This document shows, piece after piece, positions 53,791-64,000 of a DNA stretch of 64,000 nt (positions within the stretch are counted from its first letter, which is position 1; each line of letters opens with the position of its first letter). The stretch lies in NCBI GenBank assembly GCA_035534335.1, contig DATLSF010000024.1, positions 63,692-127,691 of the forward strand, read 5' to 3'. The stretch comes from Acidimicrobiales bacterium. Lineage in GTDB: Bacteria > Actinomycetota > Acidimicrobiia > Acidimicrobiales > RAAP-2. A program made the position numbers and the translations under genes. The notes beneath the pieces are model-generated. The model worked only from the letters and a program-made list of their open reading frames with translations, did not search any database and was not told the origin of the DNA.

Positions 53791-55215
53791 ATGACAACCC
53801 CCCTCGCGCCCGCTGACCTCGCCACGACCCTGGGGGCGCTGCGCGCCGCCGGCTACCGATCGGTGCCCGTGCGCGACGAGATGCGCGCCAATTTGGAGCA
53901 GCGCCTGATCGAGGGTCGGCCCCTGGTGACCGGACTGTTCGGCTATGACGACTCCGTGCTGCCCCAGCTGGAGACCGCATTGCTGGCCGGTCACGACGTG
54001 ATCCTGCTGGGCGAGCGCGGCCAGGCCAAGACCCGGCTGATCCGTTGCTTGGTCGAGCTGCTCGACGAGTGGCTGCCCATTATCGAGGGTTCGGAGGTCC
54101 GCGACGACCCCTTCGCACCCATCTCGGCCTACGCGATCGACCTCGTGGCCCAGCGCGGCGACGACGCGCCGATCGCCTGGGTTCACCGCAGCCAGCGCTT
54201 CGCCGAGAAGCTGGCCTCCCCGGACACGTCAATGGCCGACCTCATCGGCGAGGTCGACCCGATCAAAGTGGCCGGTGGCCTGTATCTGGACGACCCCCGG
54301 GCGCTCTCCTACGGGTTGGTCCCCAAGTCCAACCGCGGCATCTTCGCGATGAACGAGCTGCCCGACCTGGCTGAACGTATCCAGGTGGGCCTGCTCAACG
54401 TGCTCGAAGAGCGTGACGTGCAGATCCGCGGGCACCTGGTGCGCCTCAACCTGGACGTCATGGTCGTGGCCACGGCGAACCCCGAGGACTACACCAACCG
54501 CGGGCGACTCATCACCCCGCTGAAGGACCGCTTCGGGTCCCAGATCCGCACCCACTACCCCGACGACGTCGACACCGAGATGGCGATCGTGCACCAGGAG
54601 GTGCGCCTGCCCGCCTCGCCCAAGCCGATTATCGTGCCGTGGTTCATCGATGACGTGGTCTCGCGCATCACGCACGTCGCGCGGCGCAGCCACGTCATCT
54701 CCCAGCGCTCGGGGGTGTCGGTGCGCCTGTCCATCGCCAACTACGAGACCGTGGTGGCCAGCGCGCTGCGCCGCACGCTGCGCACCGGTGACGACGCCGT
54801 GGTGCCGCGCGTCAGCGACCTGGCGGCGATCACCCAATCGACCCAGGGCAAGCTCGAGCTCGACACGATGGAAGACGACGACCTCGACCAAGTCATCGCG
54901 GCCCTGGCCGGCCTGGCGCTTCGTCAGTGCTTCGCCGAGCGCGTCGTGCTCGAAGAGGCCGCCGAGATCGTCGAGGCGTTCCAGGGCGAGGTGTTGGTGC
55001 ACACCGGAGACGACCTGGCCGACCGTGAGTACCTCGACGTCCTCGCGGCCTTGCCCGCGCTGGAGGCACCGGTGCGTCGTGTCGCGGGACCCAGCGCCGG
55101 ACCCGGTGAGATGGCCGCCGCCACCGAGTTCGTGCTCGAGGGTCTCTATCTGACCAAGCGCCTGGCCAAGGACGCGTCGGGCGCGCGTGCCCTCTATCGC
55201 GCCCGTACCCGGTAG
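53791..55215 (+). CDS. AAA+ ATPase, Mg-chelatase/MoxR-like (Rv0958-type)
   Basis: GERGQAKT Walker A, NELPDL Walker B variant, ATANPEDYTNRG, LKDRFG. -10 TAAAGT (53779-53784) lies 6 nt upstream. Confidence 0.85.
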   Translation: MTTPLAPADLATTLGALRAAGYRSVPVRDEMRANLEQRLIEGRPLVTGLFGYDDSVLPQLETALLAGHDVILLGERGQAKTRLIRCLVELLDEWLPIIEGSEVRDDPFAPISAYAIDLVAQRGDDAPIAWVHRSQRFAEKLASPDTSMADLIGEVDPIKVAGGLYLDDPRALSYGLVPKSNRGIFAMNELPDLAERIQVGLLNVLEERDVQIRGHLVRLNLDVMVVATANPEDYTNRGRLITPLKDRFGSQIRTHYPDDVDTEMAIVHQEVRLPASPKPIIVPWFIDDVVSRITHVARRSHVISQRSGVSVRLSIANYETVVASALRRTLRTGDDAVVPRVSDLAAITQSTQGKLELDTMEDDDLDQVIAALAGLALRQCFAERVVLEEAAEIVEAFQGEVLVHTGDDLADREYLDVLAALPALEAPVRRVAGPSAGPGEMAAATEFVLEGLYLTKRLAKDASGARALYRARTR

Positions 55216-57209
55216 TGCCGGTCCGTTACGGGTTCCGTCGCTTCGGCGAGGGTGACGACTTCGAGGACCTCGACGTCGACGAGCTGCTCAGCCTGCTGGC
55301 CGACGACTACATGGACACCGGTGACCTGGACGAGGCGATGGACCGGCTGCTGCGCGAGGGGTACCTCACGCGCGACGGTCAGAAAGTCGAGGGGTTGCGC
55401 GAGTTGCTCGAGCGCGCGCGGTCGCGACGCCGCGAGCTCGAGTCCCGGGCCGACCCCGACGGCGAACTGTCGCGCTACCGAGAGCTACTCGACGAGATAG
55501 AGGCCCTGGAGTCGGCGGAGCTGGACCAACTGCTCAACGACGCGCAGACCTCCGGCGACGAGCGACGCCTCGAGGTCACCCAAGACGTCGTGGATCAAAA
55601 GCGCCTGCAGCGCGAGATGATGAGTGACCGCCTGGCCGAACGTTTGCGTGACTACCAGGACTACGAGTTTGTGTCGTCCGAGGCCCGTGAGCGCTTCGAG
55701 GAGATGATGGACGAGTTGCGTCGCGACACACTCAATACGTACTTCGAGCAGAGCAAGGAGTTCCTGGGTAGCCCCGACCCCGAGGAGTTGGCGAGGCTAC
55801 GCGACATGATGGACGCCTTGTCGACGATGATCGAACAGGACCGACGCGGCGAGCCCCTGGACCCGACCTTCGACTCCTTCATGGAGCGCTTCGGGGACTA
55901 CTTCCCCGGGGCCGAGAGTCTCGAGGACGTCGTGCGGATGATGGCCGAACGCGCGGCGGCGGCCGAAGCGATGTTCAACTCGCTCTCTGGCGACCAGCAG
56001 CGAGAGTTGCGCGGTCTCTTCGATCAGATGATGGGCGACATGGCGTTGGACCTGTCGCTGTCGAGGCTGGTGTCGAACCTGCGTCAGGCGACGCCCGATA
56101 TTGACTGGAGTCGGGCGCACCGGATGCGCGGAACGACTCCGTCGTCCTTCGCCGACGCGACGTCGGTGGCTGAACAGCTCGGTGAACTTCGCGGACTCGA
56201 AGACTTTCTGGGCAGCTCGCACGCGGCCCAGCAGCTTCCCGAGGTCGACGTGGAAGCGGTGCGACGGAACTTGGGCGACGACGCGGCGCGTCACGTCGTG
56301 CGGCTGCAGCGTGCCGTCAAGGGACTGCGCGACCAGGGCTTCGTCGATCGCGAGGGACGTCGCCTGACGCTGACCGCCAAGGGGGTTCGTCAGATCGGCC
56401 GGTCGGCGCTGCGCGACCTCTTCGCCCAGCTGCGCAACTCACCGACGCTGGGCGCGCATCGCGAAGCCAGCGTGGCGCGCGGGGGCGACCGTGAAGAGAC
56501 CTCGCGGCCGTGGGCTCCGGGCGAGCCGTTCAGCTTGCATCTGTCACGCACGCTGCGCAACGCCGTCTTGCGTCAAGGTCCCGGAACGCCGGTTCGCCTG
56601 CACCCCGACGACTTCGAGGTCGAGGAGTACGAGGCAACCCGGCGCTCGGCGACCGTGTTCGCGATTGACCTGTCGCTGTCAATGGCCATGCGCTCGAACC
56701 TCGTGCCGGCCAAGAAGATGGTCCTGGCCCTGACGCAGCTGATTACGTCGAAGTTCCCGCGCGACTACGTGGCCGTGGTGGGCTTCGGCGAGACGGCGCG
56801 TGAACTGCGCATCGAGGACGTTCCTGCTCTCGTCATCGACTACAACTACGGAACCAATCTGCAACACGCGCTGGCGCTGTCGCGCCATCTCATGCGTTTC
56901 GAGCGCGGCGACCGACAGATCGTCGTGGTGACCGACGGCGAACCGACCGCGCACCTGACCGACAATGGTGAGCCGTTCTTCGCGTGGCCCCCGGTTCGCG
57001 AGACCCTTGAGCGCACGATGGCCGAGGTGCTGCGCTGCACCAAGGCGGAGATTCAGATCAACACCTTCGCGTTGGACATCGAGCGCAGCCAGTTCCCCTT
57101 CGTTGAGCAGATCGCCAAGGTCAACGGCGGTCGGACCTTCTACACCTCGGTGGACGAGTTGGGCCGCTACGCACTCGATGATTTCGTGCGCCACCGCCGG
57201 GCGGGGTAA
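55215..57209 (+). CDS. VWA-domain protein (Rv0959-type)
   Basis: C-terminal MIDAS DLSLSM, TNLQHAL, VTDGEPTA. Long helical N-terminus. Confidence 0.85.
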   Translation: MPVRYGFRRFGEGDDFEDLDVDELLSLLADDYMDTGDLDEAMDRLLREGYLTRDGQKVEGLRELLERARSRRRELESRADPDGELSRYRELLDEIEALESAELDQLLNDAQTSGDERRLEVTQDVVDQKRLQREMMSDRLAERLRDYQDYEFVSSEARERFEEMMDELRRDTLNTYFEQSKEFLGSPDPEELARLRDMMDALSTMIEQDRRGEPLDPTFDSFMERFGDYFPGAESLEDVVRMMAERAAAAEAMFNSLSGDQQRELRGLFDQMMGDMALDLSLSRLVSNLRQATPDIDWSRAHRMRGTTPSSFADATSVAEQLGELRGLEDFLGSSHAAQQLPEVDVEAVRRNLGDDAARHVVRLQRAVKGLRDQGFVDREGRRLTLTAKGVRQIGRSALRDLFAQLRNSPTLGAHREASVARGGDREETSRPWAPGEPFSLHLSRTLRNAVLRQGPGTPVRLHPDDFEVEEYEATRRSATVFAIDLSLSMAMRSNLVPAKKMVLALTQLITSKFPRDYVAVVGFGETARELRIEDVPALVIDYNYGTNLQHALALSRHLMRFERGDRQIVVVTDGEPTAHLTDNGEPFFAWPPVRETLERTMAEVLRCTKAEIQINTFALDIERSQFPFVEQIAKVNGGRTFYTSVDELGRYALDDFVRHRRAG

Positions 57210-58104: not shown

Positions 58105-58277
58105 GTGGAGCCCCTGATCAGCGGCGTTCTCCTCGCGCCCCTCCACCCGGACGCCTTCGCCAAAGACCCGCCCGGCGAAGGGAAATCCCAATTCCATTTG
58201 CAATTTGGGCCGAATCCAGCCACAATGACACCGTTGTAATTACATCAGTGGCGGGGGCCGCTAGGGAGGGTTGCACA

Positions 58278-58553
58278 ATGGACATCACCGAATTGCTGAG
58301 TGGCATGGAAGATCGAGGCTGGCAGGCCCGGTCCAACTGCATGGGTGTGGACCCCGACCTCTTTTTCCCCGAGCGAGGCGCCTCCACCCGCGAGGCCAAA
58401 GAGGTCTGCCGGGGCTGCGTGGTGCGTGAGGACTGCCTGGAGTTTGCCCTCGACAATGGGGAGAAGTTCGGCATTTGGGGGGGCATGAGCGAGCGCGAGC
58501 GGCGTCGACTGCGTCGGGCTCGTGCGCTGGAACGTCGCACCCAGGCGAGCTGA
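58278..58553 (+). CDS. whiB: WhiB-family Fe-S transcription factor (WhiB/WhiB2-like)
   Basis: Four Cys (NC...VCRGC...DC), FFPERG, GIWGGMSERERR. ATG 58278 follows GGAGGG. Confidence 0.92.
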   Translation: MDITELLSGMEDRGWQARSNCMGVDPDLFFPERGASTREAKEVCRGCVVREDCLEFALDNGEKFGIWGGMSERERRRLRRARALERRTQAS

Positions 58554-58650: not shown

Positions 58651-59472
58651 CTAGAGGGCAAGTCTCGCCTCAATTGTGGCGTCGGGGCTCAGGTCCAACT
58701 CCACCCAGCGCGACGGATCTTCAGCATCGAGTAATGCTTGAGGCACGAGTCCTACGAGTTCGGCGTGATCGATCTGTCCACTGCCCTCGAGTTTCTCCGC
58801 CACGGCGTCGTACACGAGAGACGGCCGGGCGTTAGGTACGTCAATCAGGTTGCAACTCACCTGAACGTCATCACCGACCTCGAGGGCCAGCGCCCGCACG
58901 TGCGGCCCGCGAACCGCCGCCGCCATCGACTGGGCCCGTTCCAGGCTGACGTCGCGCAACCAAAGATTCCACGCCACCAAGATCGGTCGGCACCCGACCG
59001 CCACTGCGCCCTTGGAGGACGACGCGTCGTTCGGTCCGAGGTCGGGGGCCACTGTCTCAAAGGCGCCCCGACGCACGTCGGGCAGCGTGCGCGCCGTGCC
59101 GTCGCTGAGCGCGCCGTAGAGGAAGACGGGAACGAAGAACGTGTCGGCGAACCACGCGGCGGTCTCGTCTCGCAGCGCACACGCCTGGTCGGGATCCTCG
59201 CCGCCGAGGGCCACGAAGGGCACCACGTCGACGACCCCGAAGCGTGGGTGCACGCCCTGATGGCGGCGCAGATCGATCTTTTGGTACGCGGTGCTGGCCA
59301 AGGTGTGCAGGTCGCTGAGCAGCTGCTCGGGCTCGTTGATCAGCGTGAAGACGCTGCGGTGGTGGTGGCGGTCACGATGCCGGTCGCGCAGCGATTGGCC
59401 GGCCGCGCGCGAGAGCTGCTCGAGGACGGGCAGGTCACGGCCCTCAGAGATATTGACCACGCACTCGAACAC
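58651..59472 (-). CDS. ftcD: Glutamate formimidoyltransferase (FtcD transferase domain only)
   Basis: ECVVNISEGRD, D.HHHRSVFTL, HQGVHPRFG..DVVPF, VGCRPILVAWN, VSCNL, ELVGL. -10 TAGTCT (59484-59479) lies 6 nt upstream. Confidence 0.85.
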   Translation of the reverse strand: MFECVVNISEGRDLPVLEQLSRAAGQSLRDRHRDRHHHRSVFTLINEPEQLLSDLHTLASTAYQKIDLRRHQGVHPRFGVVDVVPFVALGGEDPDQACALRDETAAWFADTFFVPVFLYGALSDGTARTLPDVRRGAFETVAPDLGPNDASSSKGAVAVGCRPILVAWNLWLRDVSLERAQSMAAAVRGPHVRALALEVGDDVQVSCNLIDVPNARPSLVYDAVAEKLEGSGQIDHAELVGLVPQALLDAEDPSRWVELDLSPDATIEARLAL

Positions 59473-59509: not shown

Positions 59510-59758
59510 TTACGACGGGTCGGTGTAGAGGGGGGCGTGACGGCGCAGTCGCGCGATGCGACGGCGCTCGCGCTCGCTCTTGCCACCCCAGACGCCGTGG
59601 TCGACGTGGTTGGCCAGCGCGTACTCCAGACACTGCTCGGCCACCGGGCAGGTGGCGCAGATCTTTTGGGCCTTGATGACGCCGAGACCGTCGCGTGGGA
59701 AGAAGACCCCCGCCGGGTACTCACGGCACTTGCCGTCGGCCATCCATTCGGTGTTCAC
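59510..59758 (-). CDS. Second WhiB-family transcription factor
   Basis: W...GKC...FFP...ICATC...QCLEYA...GVWGG.SERERRR. Start GTG 59758 follows GGAG. Confidence 0.9.
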   Translation of the reverse strand: MNTEWMADGKCREYPAGVFFPRDGLGVIKAQKICATCPVAEQCLEYALANHVDHGVWGGKSERERRRIARLRRHAPLYTDPS

Positions 59759-59778
59759 ACGGAACTCCGGGTGCTCAT
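59755..59778 (-). other. Candidate 7-aa leaderless uORF MSTRSSV* overlapping the whiB start (GTGA)
   Basis: -10 TACGCT (59791-59786), 7 nt, then ATG AGC ACC CGG AGT TCC GTG TGA. Confidence 0.4.
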
Positions 59779-59922
59779 AACGGTCAGCGTAGCCACCGCC
59801 CCTGAGAGAGGACTGTGCAGTCGATTGCAGTTCCGTTACAGTTCTCGACGCCCGATGTAGGCCCCAAGGGGCCTTTCGGTGCGCGCCAGTAGGCTGGCCC
59901 TCGCGATCAGCGAAGGAGTGCC

Positions 59923-60201
59923 GTGAGCCAGGTCCCAATCAGTGAAGCAATCGAGGTCATCGACCCGGTGGGCCACGTCCAGGTCGTCTATCTCGGTCCA
60001 GTCGCCCCGCACTGGGAGTGCCGAATGGTCTTCGGCGACGAAGAGCAGATCCAATCCTTCGTGGACCGCATCGACGCGCGCCTGCGCTTCCTGCCGCCCC
60101 ACGACCCGCAGTTCCGGCGCAACCGTGAGCGGGTCAACCGCGACGCCGAGCGTGAGAACCTGTTGGTGGAGTGGAACCTCGGCTACGAGGAAGAGTCCTA
60201 A
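59923..60201 (+). CDS. Hypothetical small protein
   Basis: 92 aa, AAGGAG SD, -10 TAGGCT at 59890-59895, plausible codon usage. Confidence 0.7.
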   Translation: MSQVPISEAIEVIDPVGHVQVVYLGPVAPHWECRMVFGDEEQIQSFVDRIDARLRFLPPHDPQFRRNRERVNRDAERENLLVEWNLGYEEES

Positions 60202-60210
60202 ACAGCCCGA

Positions 60211-61332
60211 CTAGGCCAGCGGCGACGTCGTGACCCGTTCGTACCAGAGTTCGGGCTTGGTCAGTTCGTCGTAGCTCGGCAGTCCGTCCACGCGCAGCAG
60301 CGCGTCGAACACCGACAGCGAATGGGCCGCAGTGAGCGTGGCCACGAAGGACTGCGCCGCGTCGTGGTGGGCGCCCTGCGTGGAGATCCCAAAGAGCGCC
60401 GCCGCGGCGTCCTCGCCGCGCGCGTCGCTGCGCCGGTGGCGACGGTACGCCTCGACGAGGGCCGGTCGCGGACCCAGCAGCGTCTCGGTGATCTGGTGGG
60501 CGGCCGCGTCGAAGAAGGCCAGCAGCACGCTCGTCGCGGCGTTGAGCGCGCGCGTCGCCGCTGAGTCCTCCGGCACGGTGATGCCCTCCAACAGTGCTTC
60601 GGGGTTCTGCATCAGTGACGACAGGTCGTCGGGGTTGACGAGTGAGGAGAGCCGGTCCAACAGGTCGCCCTGAGCCGCCGCGGCCTCGCGCACGCCGTCG
60701 AGCAGCAACGCGCGCAACGCGTCACCGGTGCCCGGCTGGGACAGTACCAGCGACGCCACGAACTCCTGGGCCATCGCGAAGACGTAGACCTCATCACGCT
60801 CCAGCGACCACGACTCGCAGAAGGTCGCGAGGTTGTTGACCACCACGAGACGCTCGTCGTTCTCTCGCGGCAGCGCCAGTGCGGCCAGGGACCACGCGCG
60901 CTCGGTGAAGTGGCCGGCGACCGAGCCCATCTGGAACCCGGTGAAGAGTGGACCCAGGGCCGCCACCATCTGGGCCAGCACGGGACCCTGGTCGTCGTCG
61001 AGGTCTTCGGGAAGCGCCAGGGTGCGCGTGACGATGGGCTCGATCAGTGGTCGCCACTGCGCCAGGGCCGCGACCGCCAGCGCGGAGCGGTTGATCGCGG
61101 TGACCTTCGGCTCGCGTGCCACTGAGAAGATTGCGTCGACGTGGCGGCCCACCAGGGGCGCCCACTCCTCGAGACGCTGACGCTCCACCGGCTGGGGATT
61201 GGGGTCACCGTCCTCGCCGCGCGCGATCGACAGCGCCAGCTGGGTGGCGGTGTCGAACCACGCGTTCGGCCCCTGTTGGCCCAGGAGGTTGAAGATGTCC
61301 CCAAAGAAGCCGCCAAAGGGGTTGTCGGTCAC
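60211..61332 (-). CDS. DUF2342 (zinc-metalloprotease-like) protein lacking the HExxH motif
   Basis: W...QLALSIA...DPNP, FTGFQMGS..GH...A, LVVVNNL..F...W. The motif position reads MAQEFVA. Confidence 0.7.
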   Translation of the reverse strand: MTDNPFGGFFGDIFNLLGQQGPNAWFDTATQLALSIARGEDGDPNPQPVERQRLEEWAPLVGRHVDAIFSVAREPKVTAINRSALAVAALAQWRPLIEPIVTRTLALPEDLDDDQGPVLAQMVAALGPLFTGFQMGSVAGHFTERAWSLAALALPRENDERLVVVNNLATFCESWSLERDEVYVFAMAQEFVASLVLSQPGTGDALRALLLDGVREAAAAQGDLLDRLSSLVNPDDLSSLMQNPEALLEGITVPEDSAATRALNAATSVLLAFFDAAAHQITETLLGPRPALVEAYRRHRRSDARGEDAAAALFGISTQGAHHDAAQSFVATLTAAHSLSVFDALLRVDGLPSYDELTKPELWYERVTTSPLA

Positions 61333-61341
61333 CAAAACAAC

Positions 61342-62430
61342 CTAGAGGGCACAGGCGAGTATGACCACGGCGTGGTGTGTCACCGAGCCGCGCAGGAAGG
61401 CGATGTTGGTCAGTGCGCCGGCGGGCGTCAGGTAGAGCGCGGTGAGGAGGGAGTTCCAATTCTCGATGCTGTGCCCGGCAACCTTGAGGACCACGTCGCC
61501 CGCACGCAAGAAGCCGGTGGCGCTGCCGTGTCGGGCCACCGACGTGACCATCACGCCGCCGCCCTGAGCGCTGGTGCCCGTGATGCCCAGGCTCGAGTGG
61601 CAGCCGTTGCCGGTCGCCACGATGTCGGCGACGCGCGCGACGAACTGCGCCGAGTACCACAGGTGATTGGCCGAGAGCACGGCGACGACCGTTCCGTTGG
61701 CGTCGACCGCCACGGCGTCGGTCAACGCGTTCAGGTTCCAGTGCGGCTGCGTGGCCAGGTAGCTCACGACGCCGTTGGCGGTGAGCGTGGGGTCGCCGAG
61801 GGTGGTGGCCGCGGACACGAATCGCAGCGGTGCGCTGGCCGAGGTGACGATCGGAGCGACCGCGGTGACCGACGCCGCGGCGGGAAGCGGACCCAACTTC
61901 AACGCCGGCACGCCGACGCCAAGGCGCACGATGGAAAAGCCCATGGTGTCGTCGTATCCCACCCAGGTCACCGGGACGCGGGCCCTGGTTGCCGTCGAGG
62001 CGAAGAGGAGGGCGCCGTGGGGGATCGGCGAGGTGGTGACCGCGAGATTGTTGGCCAACACCATCGCGGCCACGGTGTAGATGTGACCGGGGCCGGGGTC
62101 GGTGATGGTCAGATCCACCGTCCTCGCGGCGGCCTGTTGCGCCACGGCCGGAAGGTGGGACCAGGTCACCGCCGTCTGCGTGAGCATGTCGATGTTGCTG
62201 GGTGTGACGCCGCGCGTCGAGGCGAGGCCCGCCCCGCCCGCCAACAGGGCGACGACCGTGACCGACGCCAACACCGCCGCGACGCGTGATCGAAGGCGCT
62301 TACGGGTGGCCGCCAGGGAGTCAAAACTGGGCAGTTCACTGGGGTGCATCCACGCCCGCTCGCCCGCCGGCGGCGGCGCGCCGTGGCGCCGCCACGGCAG
62401 CCACGCAGACGTTCGAGAGACCCAACCCAT
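61342..62430 (-). CDS. Membrane-anchored trypsin-like/PDZ protein (HtrA-like, no recognisable catalytic triad)
   Basis: WMHPSE, TM, trypsin-like fold remnants (VGYD..GFSIVRL, VDANGTVV), PDZ (LGITG, GGVMV.SV, LRAGDVV). Confidence 0.65.
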   Translation of the reverse strand: MGWVSRTSAWLPWRRHGAPPPAGERAWMHPSELPSFDSLAATRKRLRSRVAAVLASVTVVALLAGGAGLASTRGVTPSNIDMLTQTAVTWSHLPAVAQQAAARTVDLTITDPGPGHIYTVAAMVLANNLAVTTSPIPHGALLFASTATRARVPVTWVGYDDTMGFSIVRLGVGVPALKLGPLPAAASVTAVAPIVTSASAPLRFVSAATTLGDPTLTANGVVSYLATQPHWNLNALTDAVAVDANGTVVAVLSANHLWYSAQFVARVADIVATGNGCHSSLGITGTSAQGGGVMVTSVARHGSATGFLRAGDVVLKVAGHSIENWNSLLTALYLTPAGALTNIAFLRGSVTHHAVVILACAL

Positions 62431-62489
62431 GATTTTCAAGGCTAGTTAGCGAAAGGCCTTGCAAACAGGTCGCTCTAGCATCGTTGGCT

Positions 62490-63494
62490 ATGGCCACCGA
62501 CGTTGCACTCGACGTGGGCACGGGCTGGACCCGATTGGCGAGCGCCGACGAGGGGCTGCTGTTCAACGAGCCGACGATCGTGGCCATCGACACGCGCTCG
62601 GGCGAAGTTGTCGAGCTCGGCTTCGGTGCGTTGGACCTCGTCGCGAGAACCTCGCGTCACGTCATCGCATTTCGTCCGCTCTCCCAAGGTGCCACCGTCG
62701 ACTTCGACGTGACGGCACGACTTCTGTCGGGGCTCTTCGACCGGGCGGGCATCTCCAAGATCAGTCGCGTGCGCGCCCTGATGAGCGTCCCGTCCCTGGC
62801 TACGCCCATCGAGCGTCGGGCCTTGCGCCAGGCGGCGATTCAGGCCGGCGCGCGTGAGGTCAGCCTGCTCGAGGCGCCCCTGGCCGCGGCGATCGGTTTG
62901 GGTCTGCCGGTCCAGGACCCCGTTGGTTCGGCCGTCACCGTGCTCGGCGCAGGTGCGTCAGAAGCGGCGTTGCTCTCGTTGGGTGGGATTGTGACGTCGG
63001 CGACTCGACGACACGGTGGTGTCGACCTTGATGCGGCCATCGCGTCGCTGCTTCGGCAACGTCACGGTGTCGTCGTCTCACCCGCCGTGACCGAGGCGTT
63101 GAAGGTGAACCTGGGATCGGCGCGCGGACTCACGCGCGGCCTCACCGAGGAGGTGGTCGCGCGCACGGTGAGCCGCGGCGAGCCGGTGCGACTGACCGTG
63201 GGCGCCGACCTCGTCAACGTCGCGCTGCACGACGTCGTGGCTTCCACGGTGCGGATGGTCCAGGACTCCTTGGCCGACGCGCCGCCGGACCTCTCCCAGG
63301 ACGTCAGCGCACGAGGACTCACGCTGGTGGGCGGTCTGTCGCGTCTCGGTGACCTGGCCGACCTGATCTCGACGAACACCGGTGTCGAGATCCGCGTGGC
63401 CGACGACCCGGAGCTCGTCGTGATCCGAGGACTGCAACTGTGCCTGGAGGAGATGTCCTCGCTGCACCCGTTGTTCCGCGACGCCGACCTCTAA
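62490..63494 (+). CDS. mreB: MreB-like actin-fold protein, solo paralog with degenerate ATPase motifs
   Basis: LDVGT, NEPTIVAID, RPL..G, ATPIERRAL..A..AGAREV, AAAIG.GLPV, PPDLSQD...RGLTLVGG, ADDP. Confidence 0.85.
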   Translation: MATDVALDVGTGWTRLASADEGLLFNEPTIVAIDTRSGEVVELGFGALDLVARTSRHVIAFRPLSQGATVDFDVTARLLSGLFDRAGISKISRVRALMSVPSLATPIERRALRQAAIQAGAREVSLLEAPLAAAIGLGLPVQDPVGSAVTVLGAGASEAALLSLGGIVTSATRRHGGVDLDAAIASLLRQRHGVVVSPAVTEALKVNLGSARGLTRGLTEEVVARTVSRGEPVRLTVGADLVNVALHDVVASTVRMVQDSLADAPPDLSQDVSARGLTLVGGLSRLGDLADLISTNTGVEIRVADDPELVVIRGLQLCLEEMSSLHPLFRDADL

Positions 63495-64000
63495 AGCTCG
63501 TCGTCACCGAGTTGGTCGGCGGCTGCACGCACCTGCCAATCACGGTCCTCGCGCGCTCGCGCCAGCGCCGCCTCGACGTCGGGCCCCTCAAAGTTGGCCA
63601 GTGCCACGACCGCGCGACGCCGAACCGGCGGCTTGTCGTCCAGTGCCGCGATGATGGCCTCGCGGCCCCGGTCGTCGCCGAGTGTCCCGAGGGCGGCGAC
63701 GGCCGCCTCACGACACCGGGCGTCCGCGTGGTGGCCCGCCACTCGCACCAGATCGTCCACTGCCGCGACGACCAATCGCTCACCCAGGGCGAAGGCGGCC
63801 GCGTCCACGACGAGTGCATCGGCGTCGTCGAGCGCCTCGACCATGGCCGCGCGCACCGCGTCGTCGTCGGATCCGTCGTGCGCGTAGAGCGTGAGGGCGT
63901 CGCGACGCACCTCGGCGCTCGCGTCGGTCATCGCACGACGCCACGCCGCTGGGCTGAGCAGGTGGCGTTGAGCCCCCGCGCGCAGCGCGAGGACGCGAGC
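63491..64000 (-). CDS. HEAT-repeat protein, 5' end beyond the window
   Basis: Repeated VRRxA/CREAAVAALG/VRRRAVVALA/WQVRAAA units. The frame is open to nt 64000. Confidence 0.8.
   Translation of the reverse strand, partial: ARVLALRAGAQRHLLSPAAWRRAMTDASAEVRRDALTLYAHDGSDDDAVRAAMVEALDDADALVVDAAAFALGERLVVAAVDDLVRVAGHHADARCREAAVAALGTLGDDRGREAIIAALDDKPPVRRRAVVALANFEGPDVEAALARAREDRDWQVRAAADQLGDDEL

What the first reader, a model, noticed from the sequence alone, without database searches (positions are those of the whole stretch)
59923..64000. Cluster of adjacent apparent pseudoenzymes around a shared divergent promoter: candidate undescribed envelope or morphogenesis scaffold module
Three neighbouring full-length, uninterrupted ORFs each keep their fold but lack catalytic residues: DUF2342 without HExxH, HtrA-PDZ without a triad, and MreB without E136/D158. 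They are flanked by a HEAT-repeat protein and a 92-aa unknown. The PDZ and MreB genes diverge from a 59-bp gap (62431-62489) that holds two back-to-back TANNNT elements (TAGCCT 62444-62439 and TAGCAT 62476-62481), each 8 nt from an ATG. Inference: a non-catalytic signalling or scaffolding system linking the membrane (PDZ sensor) to the cytoskeleton. Chance co-location in a fast-evolving lineage is the main alternative.
Basis: partly seen in the sequence, partly recalled or inferred. Interest (0 to 1): 0.62.

Follow-up and report, generated by a model that had tools for sequence, protein, structure and literature searches.

The report
Three catalytically dead enzymes, conserved cluster
Three neighbouring genes (a zincin-like protein, an HtrA-like PDZ protein and a second MreB actin) have all lost their catalytic residues yet are kept by selection. 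They sit in a gene neighbourhood shared across Actinomycetota, so they probably work as non-catalytic binders or scaffolds, but the losses arose separately, not as one module.

Summary

- **DUF2342/Zincin_2 protein:** HExxH now reads QEFVA.
- **PDZ protein:** it folds as an HtrA protease plus PDZ (AF2 pLDDT 80; Foldseek E about 1e-15) but has no triad.
- **MreB paralog:** it lacks CcMreB E140 (Ala), D162 (Val) and T167 (Ala).
- **Promoter boxes:** both TANNNT boxes are the only conserved blocks in the 59-bp gap across five relatives.

- **Neighbourhood:** DUF2342, HtrA-like, MreB2, HEAT, PDZ-Lon, DivIVA and UPF0182 keep this order in about 50 genomes of the class. The core DUF2342..PDZ-Lon..UPF0182 is phylum-wide.
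- **Selection:** all three dead enzymes are under purifying selection (dN/dS 0.07-0.30).
- **Separate losses:** the triad is gone in 28 of 34 syntenic HtrA copies and HExxH in 33 of 50 DUF2342 copies, with no association between the two. Every MreB2 in the class lacks the catalytic Glu (usually Gln). Only this genus-level clade also lost the Asp and remodelled the Gly loop, on a very long branch.
- **Divergent promoter:** it is specific to this lineage, because moaE intervenes elsewhere.

The best reading is a set of non-catalytic binder or scaffold proteins in an envelope-proteostasis and cytoskeleton neighbourhood. No physical link between them was shown.

The parts
59510..59755 (-). WhiB-family transcription factor. 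The real start is probably internal to the 142-aa ORF that runs to 59938.
   Evidence: Pfam Whib E 1e-20. Close relatives are called at 77-81 aa.
59923..60201 (+). unk92: a 92-aa, very conserved protein of unknown function. It is divergent from whiB and lies tail-to-tail with DUF2342.
   Evidence: No Pfam or NCBIfam hit. 3289 related clusters, with LLPPHDPQFRRNRERVNRDAERE nearly invariant across them. dN/dS 0.06. AF2 pLDDT 83, with no PDB fold match.
60211..61335 (-). DUF2342/Zincin_2 protein without a metal site (pseudo-zincin). It is the only copy in the genome.
   Evidence: PF10103 E 2.4e-26 over the full profile. The HExxH column reads QEFVA at residues 190-194, window 60748-60774. dN/dS 0.11-0.17. 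Single copy.
61342..62430 (-). Pseudo-HtrA. It has a cytoplasmic N-tail with a W-x-HPSE motif (residues 27-32), a TM helix (about 49-71), an extracytoplasmic trypsin-fold domain without a triad, and a PDZ domain (about 276-357) that keeps the SLGI carboxylate-binding loop.
   Evidence: Pfam PDZ only. AF2 and Foldseek match DegP and Mtb HtrA at E 4e-15. Syntenic orthologs carry Trypsin_2 plus PDZ. Triad columns are lost. dN/dS 0.28-0.30.
62431..62489 (.). 59-bp divergent intergenic region with two back-to-back -10-like boxes: TAGCCT at 62444-62439 (minus strand) and TAGCAT at 62476-62481 (plus strand). Each lies 8 nt from a start codon. A conserved GTCGC sits just 5' of the plus-strand box.
   Evidence: Sequence. 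These are the only conserved blocks across five relatives. Genome-wide leaderless signal. No transcript data were available.
62490..63494 (+). MreB2*: a divergent second MreB paralog with a degenerate ATPase site (P1 DVGTGWT; L-L-E-A-P; V-T-V-L-G-A-G-A-S-E; LVGGLSRL).
   Evidence: PF06723 260.9 bits, against 495.8 bits for the canonical MreB on C33. Alignment to CcMreB. Motif tables. Long branch in the tree. dN/dS 0.07-0.09.
63491..64000 (-). HEAT-repeat protein (3' part only; the gene continues beyond the window end). It is convergent with MreB2* and overlaps it by 4 nt.
   Evidence: HEAT_2 E 1.6e-13. It is adjacent to MreB2 in most genomes of the class.

Best explanation
The stretch is this lineage's version of an old Actinomycetota gene neighbourhood: DUF2342 zincin-like protein, [HtrA-like membrane protein], a second MreB paralog (MreB2), [HEAT protein], YlbL-type PDZ-Lon protease, DivIVA-domain protein and the UPF0182 membrane protein.

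Here three members are catalytically dead but maintained by purifying selection, so they most likely act by binding rather than by catalysis.

(i) The pseudo-HtrA is a single-pass membrane protein. Its extracytoplasmic trypsin-fold barrel and intact PDZ loop could hold envelope proteins or C-termini as a holdase, adaptor or sensor. It may work beside the neighbouring PDZ-Lon protease, which keeps its catalytic residues.

(ii) The pseudo-zincin is a cytoplasmic binder or regulator.

(iii) MreB2* is an actin-fold protein that cannot hydrolyse ATP by the normal E...T-X-[D/E] mechanism. It would serve as a static filament or adaptor, separate from the canonical MreB-MreC-MreD-PBP2 elongasome encoded elsewhere.

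The pseudo-HtrA and MreB2* genes are probably co-regulated from overlapping divergent promoters that give leaderless or near-leaderless mRNAs.

Shown: homology, folds, residue losses, synteny, selection and conserved -10 boxes. Inferred: the non-catalytic roles, any physical contacts, and the tie to membrane or envelope proteostasis.
For: - Families and folds.
- Residue losses.
- Synteny in 52 class loci and 20 loci from other classes.
- Downstream genes are PDZ plus Lon_C, DivIVA and UPF0182.
- The PDZ-Lon Ser-Lys dyad is intact in 40 of 40 loci, which serves as an internal control.
- Purifying selection: dN/dS is 0.07-0.09 for MreB2*, 0.11-0.17 for DUF2342* and 0.28-0.30 for pseudo-HtrA. Neighbours with intact catalytic residues give 0.10-0.28.
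- 120 metagenomic relatives at 69-100% identity all keep the new motifs E[AS]P and LGAGASE.
- The genome has separate copies with intact motifs: canonical mreB-mreC-mreD-pbp2 on C33 and an HtrA with a full triad on C3.
- The -10 boxes are conserved.
- Precedent: Spiroplasma MreB3 lacks the same motif, releases Pi very slowly and still polymerises (PMC9597168).
- UPF0182 is linked to FtsH/YccA membrane-protein quality control (bioRxiv 10.1101/2025.11.14.688347).
Against:
- The losses are independent across the class, so the three proteins need not work together.
- The adenosine motif of MreB2* is also altered (GGG to GGL, GGH or GSH), so even nucleotide binding and polymerisation are uncertain.
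- The 8-nt box-to-start spacing is off the genomic mode of 6 nt.
- The proteostasis link rests on one preprint about mycobacteria and on gene adjacency.
Confidence: 0.55

Rival explanations
1. Inherited synteny without functional coupling. The three genes sit together only because the ancestral neighbourhood is old. Each lost catalysis on its own schedule and has an unrelated non-catalytic role, so the 'pseudoenzyme cluster' is a coincidence of common states.
For: The triad is lost in 28 of 34 syntenic HtrA copies and HExxH in 33 of 50 DUF2342 copies. The two losses are not associated: with an intact triad, 2 keep HExxH and 4 have lost it; with a lost triad, 13 keep it and 15 have lost it. All 52 MreB2 lack the catalytic Glu. 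The HtrA-like and HEAT genes are undetected in several lineages that keep the rest of the block.
Against: Order and orientation persist across a class and partly across a phylum. That is unusual for functionally unrelated genes. In this lineage the pseudo-HtrA and MreB2* genes share a compact conserved control region.
Confidence: 0.3
2. Residual or rewired catalysis. The proteins still act as enzymes through other residues. Candidates are the conserved His116 or Cys277-His278 in the pseudo-HtrA family, the retained Glu in QEFVA, and the retained P1 Asp and E169 equivalent in MreB2*.
For: The new motifs are themselves strongly conserved. dN/dS for MreB2* is as low as 0.07. In Spiroplasma MreB3, slow Pi release persists (PMC9597168).
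Against: Both zinc-ligand His residues, the whole Ser loop of the protease, and three separate ATPase elements are gone. No known precedent rescues such combined losses.
Confidence: 0.08
3. The genes are decaying pseudogenes in a fast-evolving, streamlined genome.
For: The genome is small at 2.08 Mb. The MreB2 branch is very long.
Against: Full-length open frames are kept in well over 100 diverged relatives for each of the pseudo-HtrA and MreB2*. dN/dS is 0.07-0.30, similar to or lower than neighbours with intact catalytic residues.
Confidence: 0.02

Closest known systems
Spiroplasma MreB3 (SpeMreB3; PDB 7E1C/7E1G)
   Same: A natural MreB isoform that lacks the E...T-X-[D/E] catalytic motif, which is conserved in 95.8% of non-Spiroplasma MreBs. 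It has very slow Pi release, coexists with catalytically normal MreBs and has a specialised role (PMC9597168). PDB hit at E 3.5e-33.
   Different: It belongs to a different phylum, and no specific relationship to MreB3 was tested. MreB3 carries E to D, T to K and E to S/T. Here the changes are E to A and T to A, with the last Glu kept, plus loss of the phosphate-2 Asp and a changed adenosine motif. Polymerisation is untested here. The sister genus (G119) does show T167 to K.
Acidimicrobiia 'MreB2' paralog clade (syntenic, unnamed)
   Same: Same position between the HtrA-like or moaE gene and HEAT/PDZ-Lon. It lacks the catalytic Glu.
   Different: Typical members carry actin-like Gln (EQP) with intact DLGTANT and DIGGGT[TS]E motifs, and they evolve slowly. 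The window's clade is 37-40% identical to them, sits on a branch of 1.5-2 substitutions per site, and has lost Asp162, Gly165 and Thr167.
HtrA/DegP/DegS family (S1C), for example M. tuberculosis HtrA or PepD
   Same: A membrane-anchored trypsin-fold domain followed by a PDZ domain. Foldseek E about 1e-14 to 1e-15. Syntenic orthologs match Trypsin_2.
   Different: No His-Asp-Ser triad, and the Ser loop is deleted. Pfam sees only the PDZ domain. The genome has a separate HtrA with a full triad.
Zincin_2/DUF2342 (TIGR03624; PDB 3CMN 'putative hydrolase'; M. tuberculosis Rv3195, the last from memory)
   Same: Full-length family match. Same neighbourhood with PDZ-Lon and UPF0182 as in other Actinomycetota.
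   Different: HExxH is replaced by QEFVA. It scores below the NCBIfam cut-offs. The family's function is unknown even where the motif is intact.
UPF0182 / PDZ-Lon (YlbL, Rv3194c-like) block of Actinobacteria
   Same: UPF0182 and PDZ-Lon lie immediately downstream. UPF0182 was recently tied to FtsH/YccA membrane-protein quality control (bioRxiv 10.1101/2025.11.14.688347). Rv3194c is described as a serine protease.
   Different: Those studies do not mention MreB2, HEAT or pseudo-HtrA partners. Mycobacteria lack MreB.

Membership tests
MreB/Mbl (PF06723) | Whole-protein score above the Pfam gathering cut-off | tested here: met
   260.9 bits against a cut-off of 27.
MreB/Mbl (PF06723) | NCBIfam MreB subfamily cut-offs (NF010539 at 293; TIGR00904 at 365.75) | tested here: not met
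   260.6 and 231.6 bits. The canonical copy on C33 scores 495.8 bits on Pfam.
MreB/Mbl (PF06723) | Catalytic motif E...T-X-[D/E] (CcMreB E140, T167, E169) and the phosphate-2 Asp | tested here: not met
   E140 is Ala129, T167 is Ala156 and D162 is Val151; E169 is kept. The motif definition comes from PMC9597168.
MreB/Mbl (PF06723) | Genomic association with mreC, mreD and pbp2 | tested here: not met
   mreC (PF04085) and PBP2 follow the canonical mreB on contig C33, with a short membrane protein between them that Pfam did not match and that is called MreD here by position only. This copy is instead flanked by the pseudo-HtrA and HEAT genes.
MreB/Mbl (PF06723) | ATP-dependent polymerisation into antiparallel double filaments | not testable with these tools
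   Needs purified protein.
HtrA (S1C) protease with PDZ | Trypsin-like fold followed by a PDZ domain | tested here: met
   AF2 pLDDT 80. Foldseek to DegP and Mtb HtrA at E 4e-15, covering about 300 columns.
HtrA (S1C) protease with PDZ | His-Asp-Ser catalytic triad with a GxSGG loop | tested here: not met
   His is Pro, Asp is Gly and the Ser loop is deleted. The triad is intact in syntenic orthologs L042, L057, L058, L060, L061 and L081.
HtrA (S1C) protease with PDZ | Sequence match to Trypsin_2 (PF13365) | tested here: not met
   Only PDZ models match the window protein. Orthologs L041 and L042 do match Trypsin_2.
Zincin_2 / DUF2342 (PF10103) | Full-length Pfam match above the cut-off | tested here: met
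   93.3 bits against a cut-off of 25, covering profile 3-343 of 344.
Zincin_2 / DUF2342 (PF10103) | HExxH zinc-binding motif | tested here: not met
   QEFVA aligns to HEMTH of 3CMN and to HEVVH or HELAH of relatives.
Leaderless divergent sigma-A-type promoters | TANNNT -10 box a few nt upstream of the start codon, conserved in relatives | tested here: met
   Both boxes are invariant or near-invariant in five relatives. Spacing is 7-8 nt against a genomic mode of 6.
Leaderless divergent sigma-A-type promoters | Mapped transcription start at or next to the start codon | not testable with these tools
Functional module (co-operating proteins) | Conserved adjacency across lineages | tested here: met
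   52 class loci and 20 loci from other classes.
Functional module (co-operating proteins) | Correlated loss of catalytic residues | tested here: not met
   No association between triad loss and HExxH loss.
Functional module (co-operating proteins) | Physical interaction or co-expression | not testable with these tools
   No multimer prediction and no RNA data were available.

The most novel reading that the evidence does not exclude
The second MreB paralog, the HEAT protein and the membrane-spanning HtrA-like protein together form a cytoskeleton-to-envelope bridge. The HtrA-like protein would contribute its conserved cytoplasmic W-x-HPSE tail. This bridge would position or regulate the neighbouring membrane-proteostasis machinery (PDZ-Lon protease and UPF0182/FtsH). 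It would be an undescribed actin-guided quality-control system in several classes of Actinomycetota. In this clade it would have become fully non-enzymatic, with a nucleotide-hydrolysis-independent MreB.
Probability: 0.12. Interest if true: 0.8.

Novelty: new variant of a known kind. Interest (0 to 1): 0.5.

Why it matters
MreB function is thought to depend on ATP hydrolysis. The only studied natural exception is Spiroplasma MreB3.

Here a whole, environmentally widespread actinobacterial clade (more than 120 sequence clusters) keeps an MreB paralog without the hydrolysis residues, under strong purifying selection. Its class-wide parent clade carries an actin-like Gln at the catalytic position.

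This paralog also sits in a phylum-wide neighbourhood with DUF2342, a PDZ-Lon protease and UPF0182. Those families are still poorly understood, and UPF0182 has only just been tied to FtsH regulation. The series from intact to dead forms in one syntenic context offers natural mutants for asking what each protein does apart from catalysis.

Tried and rejected
- **Decay hypothesis:** rejected by dN/dS.
- **Coordinated co-loss:** the triad-versus-HExxH table shows no association.
- **W-x-HP[ST]E as a shared docking motif:** the motif occurs only once in the genome, so it gives no support for a wider interaction code.
- **unk92 function:** no Pfam or NCBIfam hit and no PDB fold match; the best Foldseek E is 0.09.
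- **Literature on Acidimicrobiia MreB:** none found.
- **Earlier scan notes:** nothing for relatives or by keywords.
- **Tree placement:** placing the window's MreB2* inside the class MreB2 clade is unreliable because of long-branch effects, and the careful tree search did not finish. Orthology therefore rests on synteny.
- **Not run:** no Rfam search was made.

Full report
**What is there**

The window is G000:C24:63692-127691 of a 2.08-Mb, 38-contig genome. The class label Acidimicrobiia is taken from source annotations of relatives.

ORF listing and family scans give these genes:
- glutamate formimidoyltransferase, 58651-59472 (-)
- a WhiB protein, 59510 to about 59755 (-)
- a 92-aa unknown, 59923-60201 (+)
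- a DUF2342/Zincin_2 protein, 60211-61335 (-)
- a PDZ protein, 61342-62430 (-)
- an MreB-like protein, 62490-63494 (+)
- a HEAT-repeat protein, 63491 onward (-), which runs past the window end

Beyond the window the contig continues with three more genes:
- a PDZ plus Lon_C protease (YlbL/Rv3194c type)
- a DivIVA-domain protein
- a 960-aa UPF0182 protein (788 bits)

**Are they pseudoenzymes? Yes, all three.**

*MreB-like protein.* Alignment to Caulobacter MreB (PDB 4CZ*, E about 3e-54) and to relatives shows these replacements:
- LIDEPMAAA becomes LLEAPLAAA
- VVDIGGGTTE becomes VTVLGAGASE

In CcMreB numbering, E140 is Ala129, D162 is Val151, G165 is Ala, T167 is Ala156, and E169 is kept. A published analysis defines E...T-X-[D/E] as the hydrolysis motif. 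It is conserved in 95.8% of non-Spiroplasma MreBs, and its absence from Spiroplasma MreB3 causes very slow Pi release (PMC9597168).

*PDZ protein.* Pfam sees only the PDZ domain. An AlphaFold2 model built on 36 homologs (pLDDT 80) matches DegP, DegQ, DegS and M. tuberculosis HtrA over about 300 columns (E 4e-15, probability 1.0). Syntenic orthologs match Trypsin_2 plus PDZ. In the window protein the His column is Pro, the Asp column is Gly, and the GxSGG loop is missing. The model and sequence give this layout:
- a cytoplasmic tail with a W-x-HPSE motif
- a basic cluster followed by a TM helix (49-71)
- an extracytoplasmic barrel plus PDZ domain

The PDZ carboxylate-binding loop (SLGI) is conserved.

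*DUF2342 protein.* It matches the full Pfam profile, but HExxH reads QEFVA. This column aligns to HEMTH of the one solved homolog, 3CMN, and to HEVVH or HELAH of relatives.

*Copies with intact motifs elsewhere in the genome.*
- A canonical mreB lies on C33, followed by mreC (PF04085), a short membrane protein taken to be MreD by position only, and pbp2.
- An HtrA with TNNHV, DVALI and GNSGG motifs lies on C3.
- There is no second DUF2342 copy.

**Is the neighbourhood conserved? Strongly.**

I fetched about 18-20 kb around the best MreB2-type hit in about 50 genomes from about 30 families of the class. Annotating them by BLAST with seed proteins gave a recurring order:

DUF2342< [AhbAB<] HtrA-PDZ< [MoaE>] MreB2> HEAT< PDZ-Lon> DivIVA> UPF0182>

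One family (f3) has the right-hand side rearranged.

Sampling other classes of the phylum around UPF0182 showed DUF2342< ... PDZ-Lon> UPF0182> in 17 of 20 loci. A second MreB paralog lies between them in 10 of those loci. The core block is therefore phylum-wide. The HtrA-like and HEAT genes were detected only within the class.

In the window's genome moaE has moved about 90 kb away. This brings the pseudo-HtrA and MreB2 genes head to head.

**Was catalysis lost together? No.**

Motif tables over the 52 class loci show:
- **MreB2:** it lacks the catalytic Glu in all 52. Gln (EQP, as in actin) is present in 49, including G119 (TQP). Ala, Thr or Ser is present in the three genomes of the window's genus. 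The P1 and P2 motifs are perfectly conserved except in family f1. There the window's genus has lost Asp162 and remodelled the Gly loop. The sister genus (G119) shows T167 to K, the same change as Spiroplasma MreB3.
- **Syntenic HtrA-like gene:** it keeps a full triad in only 6 of 34 genomes.
- **DUF2342:** it keeps HExxH in 17 of 50.
- **Association:** triad and HExxH states are not associated. With an intact triad, 2 keep HExxH and 4 have lost it. With a lost triad, 13 keep it and 15 have lost it.
- **Control:** the neighbouring PDZ-Lon protease keeps its GPS[AG]G Ser and its Lys in 40 of 40 loci.

Outside the class, the second MreB paralogs sampled mostly keep EEP.

**Are the dead genes still functional? 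Yes, by the test of selection.**

- **Close relatives:** two were recovered with the whole neighbourhood.
- **dN/dS (Nei-Gojobori):** the values were MreB2* 0.07-0.09, DUF2342* 0.11-0.17, pseudo-HtrA 0.28-0.30, HEAT 0.27-0.28, PDZ-Lon 0.24-0.26, UPF0182 0.15-0.21 and unk92 0.06.
- **MreB2* relatives:** 120 metagenomic clusters at 69-100% identity all keep E[AS]P and LG[AG]GASE.
- **Pseudo-HtrA relatives:** this protein has more than 120 full-length relatives.
- **Tree (quick method; the careful search did not finish):** the f1 MreB2 sequences sit on branches of 0.5-2.7 substitutions per site behind a stem of 1.5-2. The canonical MreBs of the same genomes sit on branches of 0.05-0.11.

So there was a burst of change followed by renewed constraint. 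This is the pattern of a functional shift, not of decay.

**Promoters**

Across five relatives the 59-bp spacer varies freely except at AGGCTA (which is TAGCCT on the minus strand) and at GTCGC[TC]CTA..[AC]T on the plus strand. Spacing to the start codon is 7-8 nt.

Genome-wide, TANNNT peaks sharply 6 nt before start codons (140 of 1151 long ORFs). Spacings of 7-9 nt are about 3-fold above background. Leaderless or 1-2-nt-leader transcripts from two overlapping divergent promoters are plausible.

**Interpretation**

The idea of a dedicated scaffold module made of pseudoenzymes is only partly borne out.

What the data support is an old, conserved neighbourhood whose flanking members point to envelope or membrane proteostasis. 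These are an intact PDZ-Lon protease and UPF0182, which a recent preprint ties to FtsH/YccA (10.1101/2025.11.14.688347). The neighbourhood also contains cytoskeletal proteins (MreB2, DivIVA domain). Within it, the HtrA-like and zincin-like members are dispensable as enzymes in most lineages, and MreB2 is a low- or no-hydrolysis actin throughout the class.

The window's clade is the extreme case, with all three dead and MreB2 deeply remodelled. I favour non-catalytic binding or scaffolding roles at confidence 0.55. The main rival is inherited synteny without coupling, at 0.30. A physical membrane-to-cytoskeleton link is untested.

Noticed in passing
window 59923-60201 (+): The 92-aa unknown is the most conserved gene of the neighbourhood. 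It has 3289 related clusters, with LLPPHDPQFRRNRERVNRDAERE nearly invariant across them, and dN/dS 0.06. The AF2 model is confident (pLDDT 83; beta-beta-alpha-alpha-beta). It has no Pfam or NCBIfam family and no PDB fold match. It is divergent from whiB.
   Followed up: partly
window 59510-59938 (-) and about 58215-58493 (+): Two WhiB-family genes flank the formimidoyltransferase gene. The 142-aa ORF for the first overlaps unk92, and relatives call it at only 77-81 aa. This leaves a divergent whiB/unk92 control region of about 167 bp.
   Followed up: partly
window 62470-62475: A GTCGC element immediately 5' of the MreB2* -10 box is invariant in five relatives. It could be an extended promoter element or a regulator site.
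   Followed up: no
L046 (G119:C81), MreB2 gene: The sister genus in the same family has MreB2 with TQP and GGGKSE. The T167 to Lys change is the same substitution as in Spiroplasma MreB3. The syntenic HtrA-like gene is undetected there.
   Followed up: no
whole genome G000: There is a strong leaderless-mRNA signature. TANNNT ends exactly 6 nt before the first start codon in 140 of 1151 long high-GC3 ORFs, against about 5 per offset in the background.
   Followed up: partly
L129-L145 (other classes of the phylum): DUF2342< ... PDZ-Lon> UPF0182> is conserved in 17 of 20 sampled loci outside the class. A second MreB paralog lies between them in 10. MreB-less lineages keep the block without it.
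   Followed up: partly
L034:6900-7937 (C24, just beyond the window end): The PDZ-Lon (YlbL-type) protease next to the dead enzymes keeps its Ser-Lys dyad in all 40 genomes examined. It is a candidate catalytic partner for the pseudo-HtrA.
   Followed up: partly
pseudo-HtrA family alignment A1 (window 61342-62430): Cys277, His278 and the C-terminal Cys360 are invariant in 36 family members. This may be a disulfide or a metal site in the extracytoplasmic PDZ region.
   Followed up: no
window 53791-57209 (+): A MoxR-type AAA+ gene and a VWA-domain gene (with an Rv0959-like third domain) form an overlapping pair upstream. Both are under purifying selection (dN/dS 0.10-0.17).
   Followed up: no
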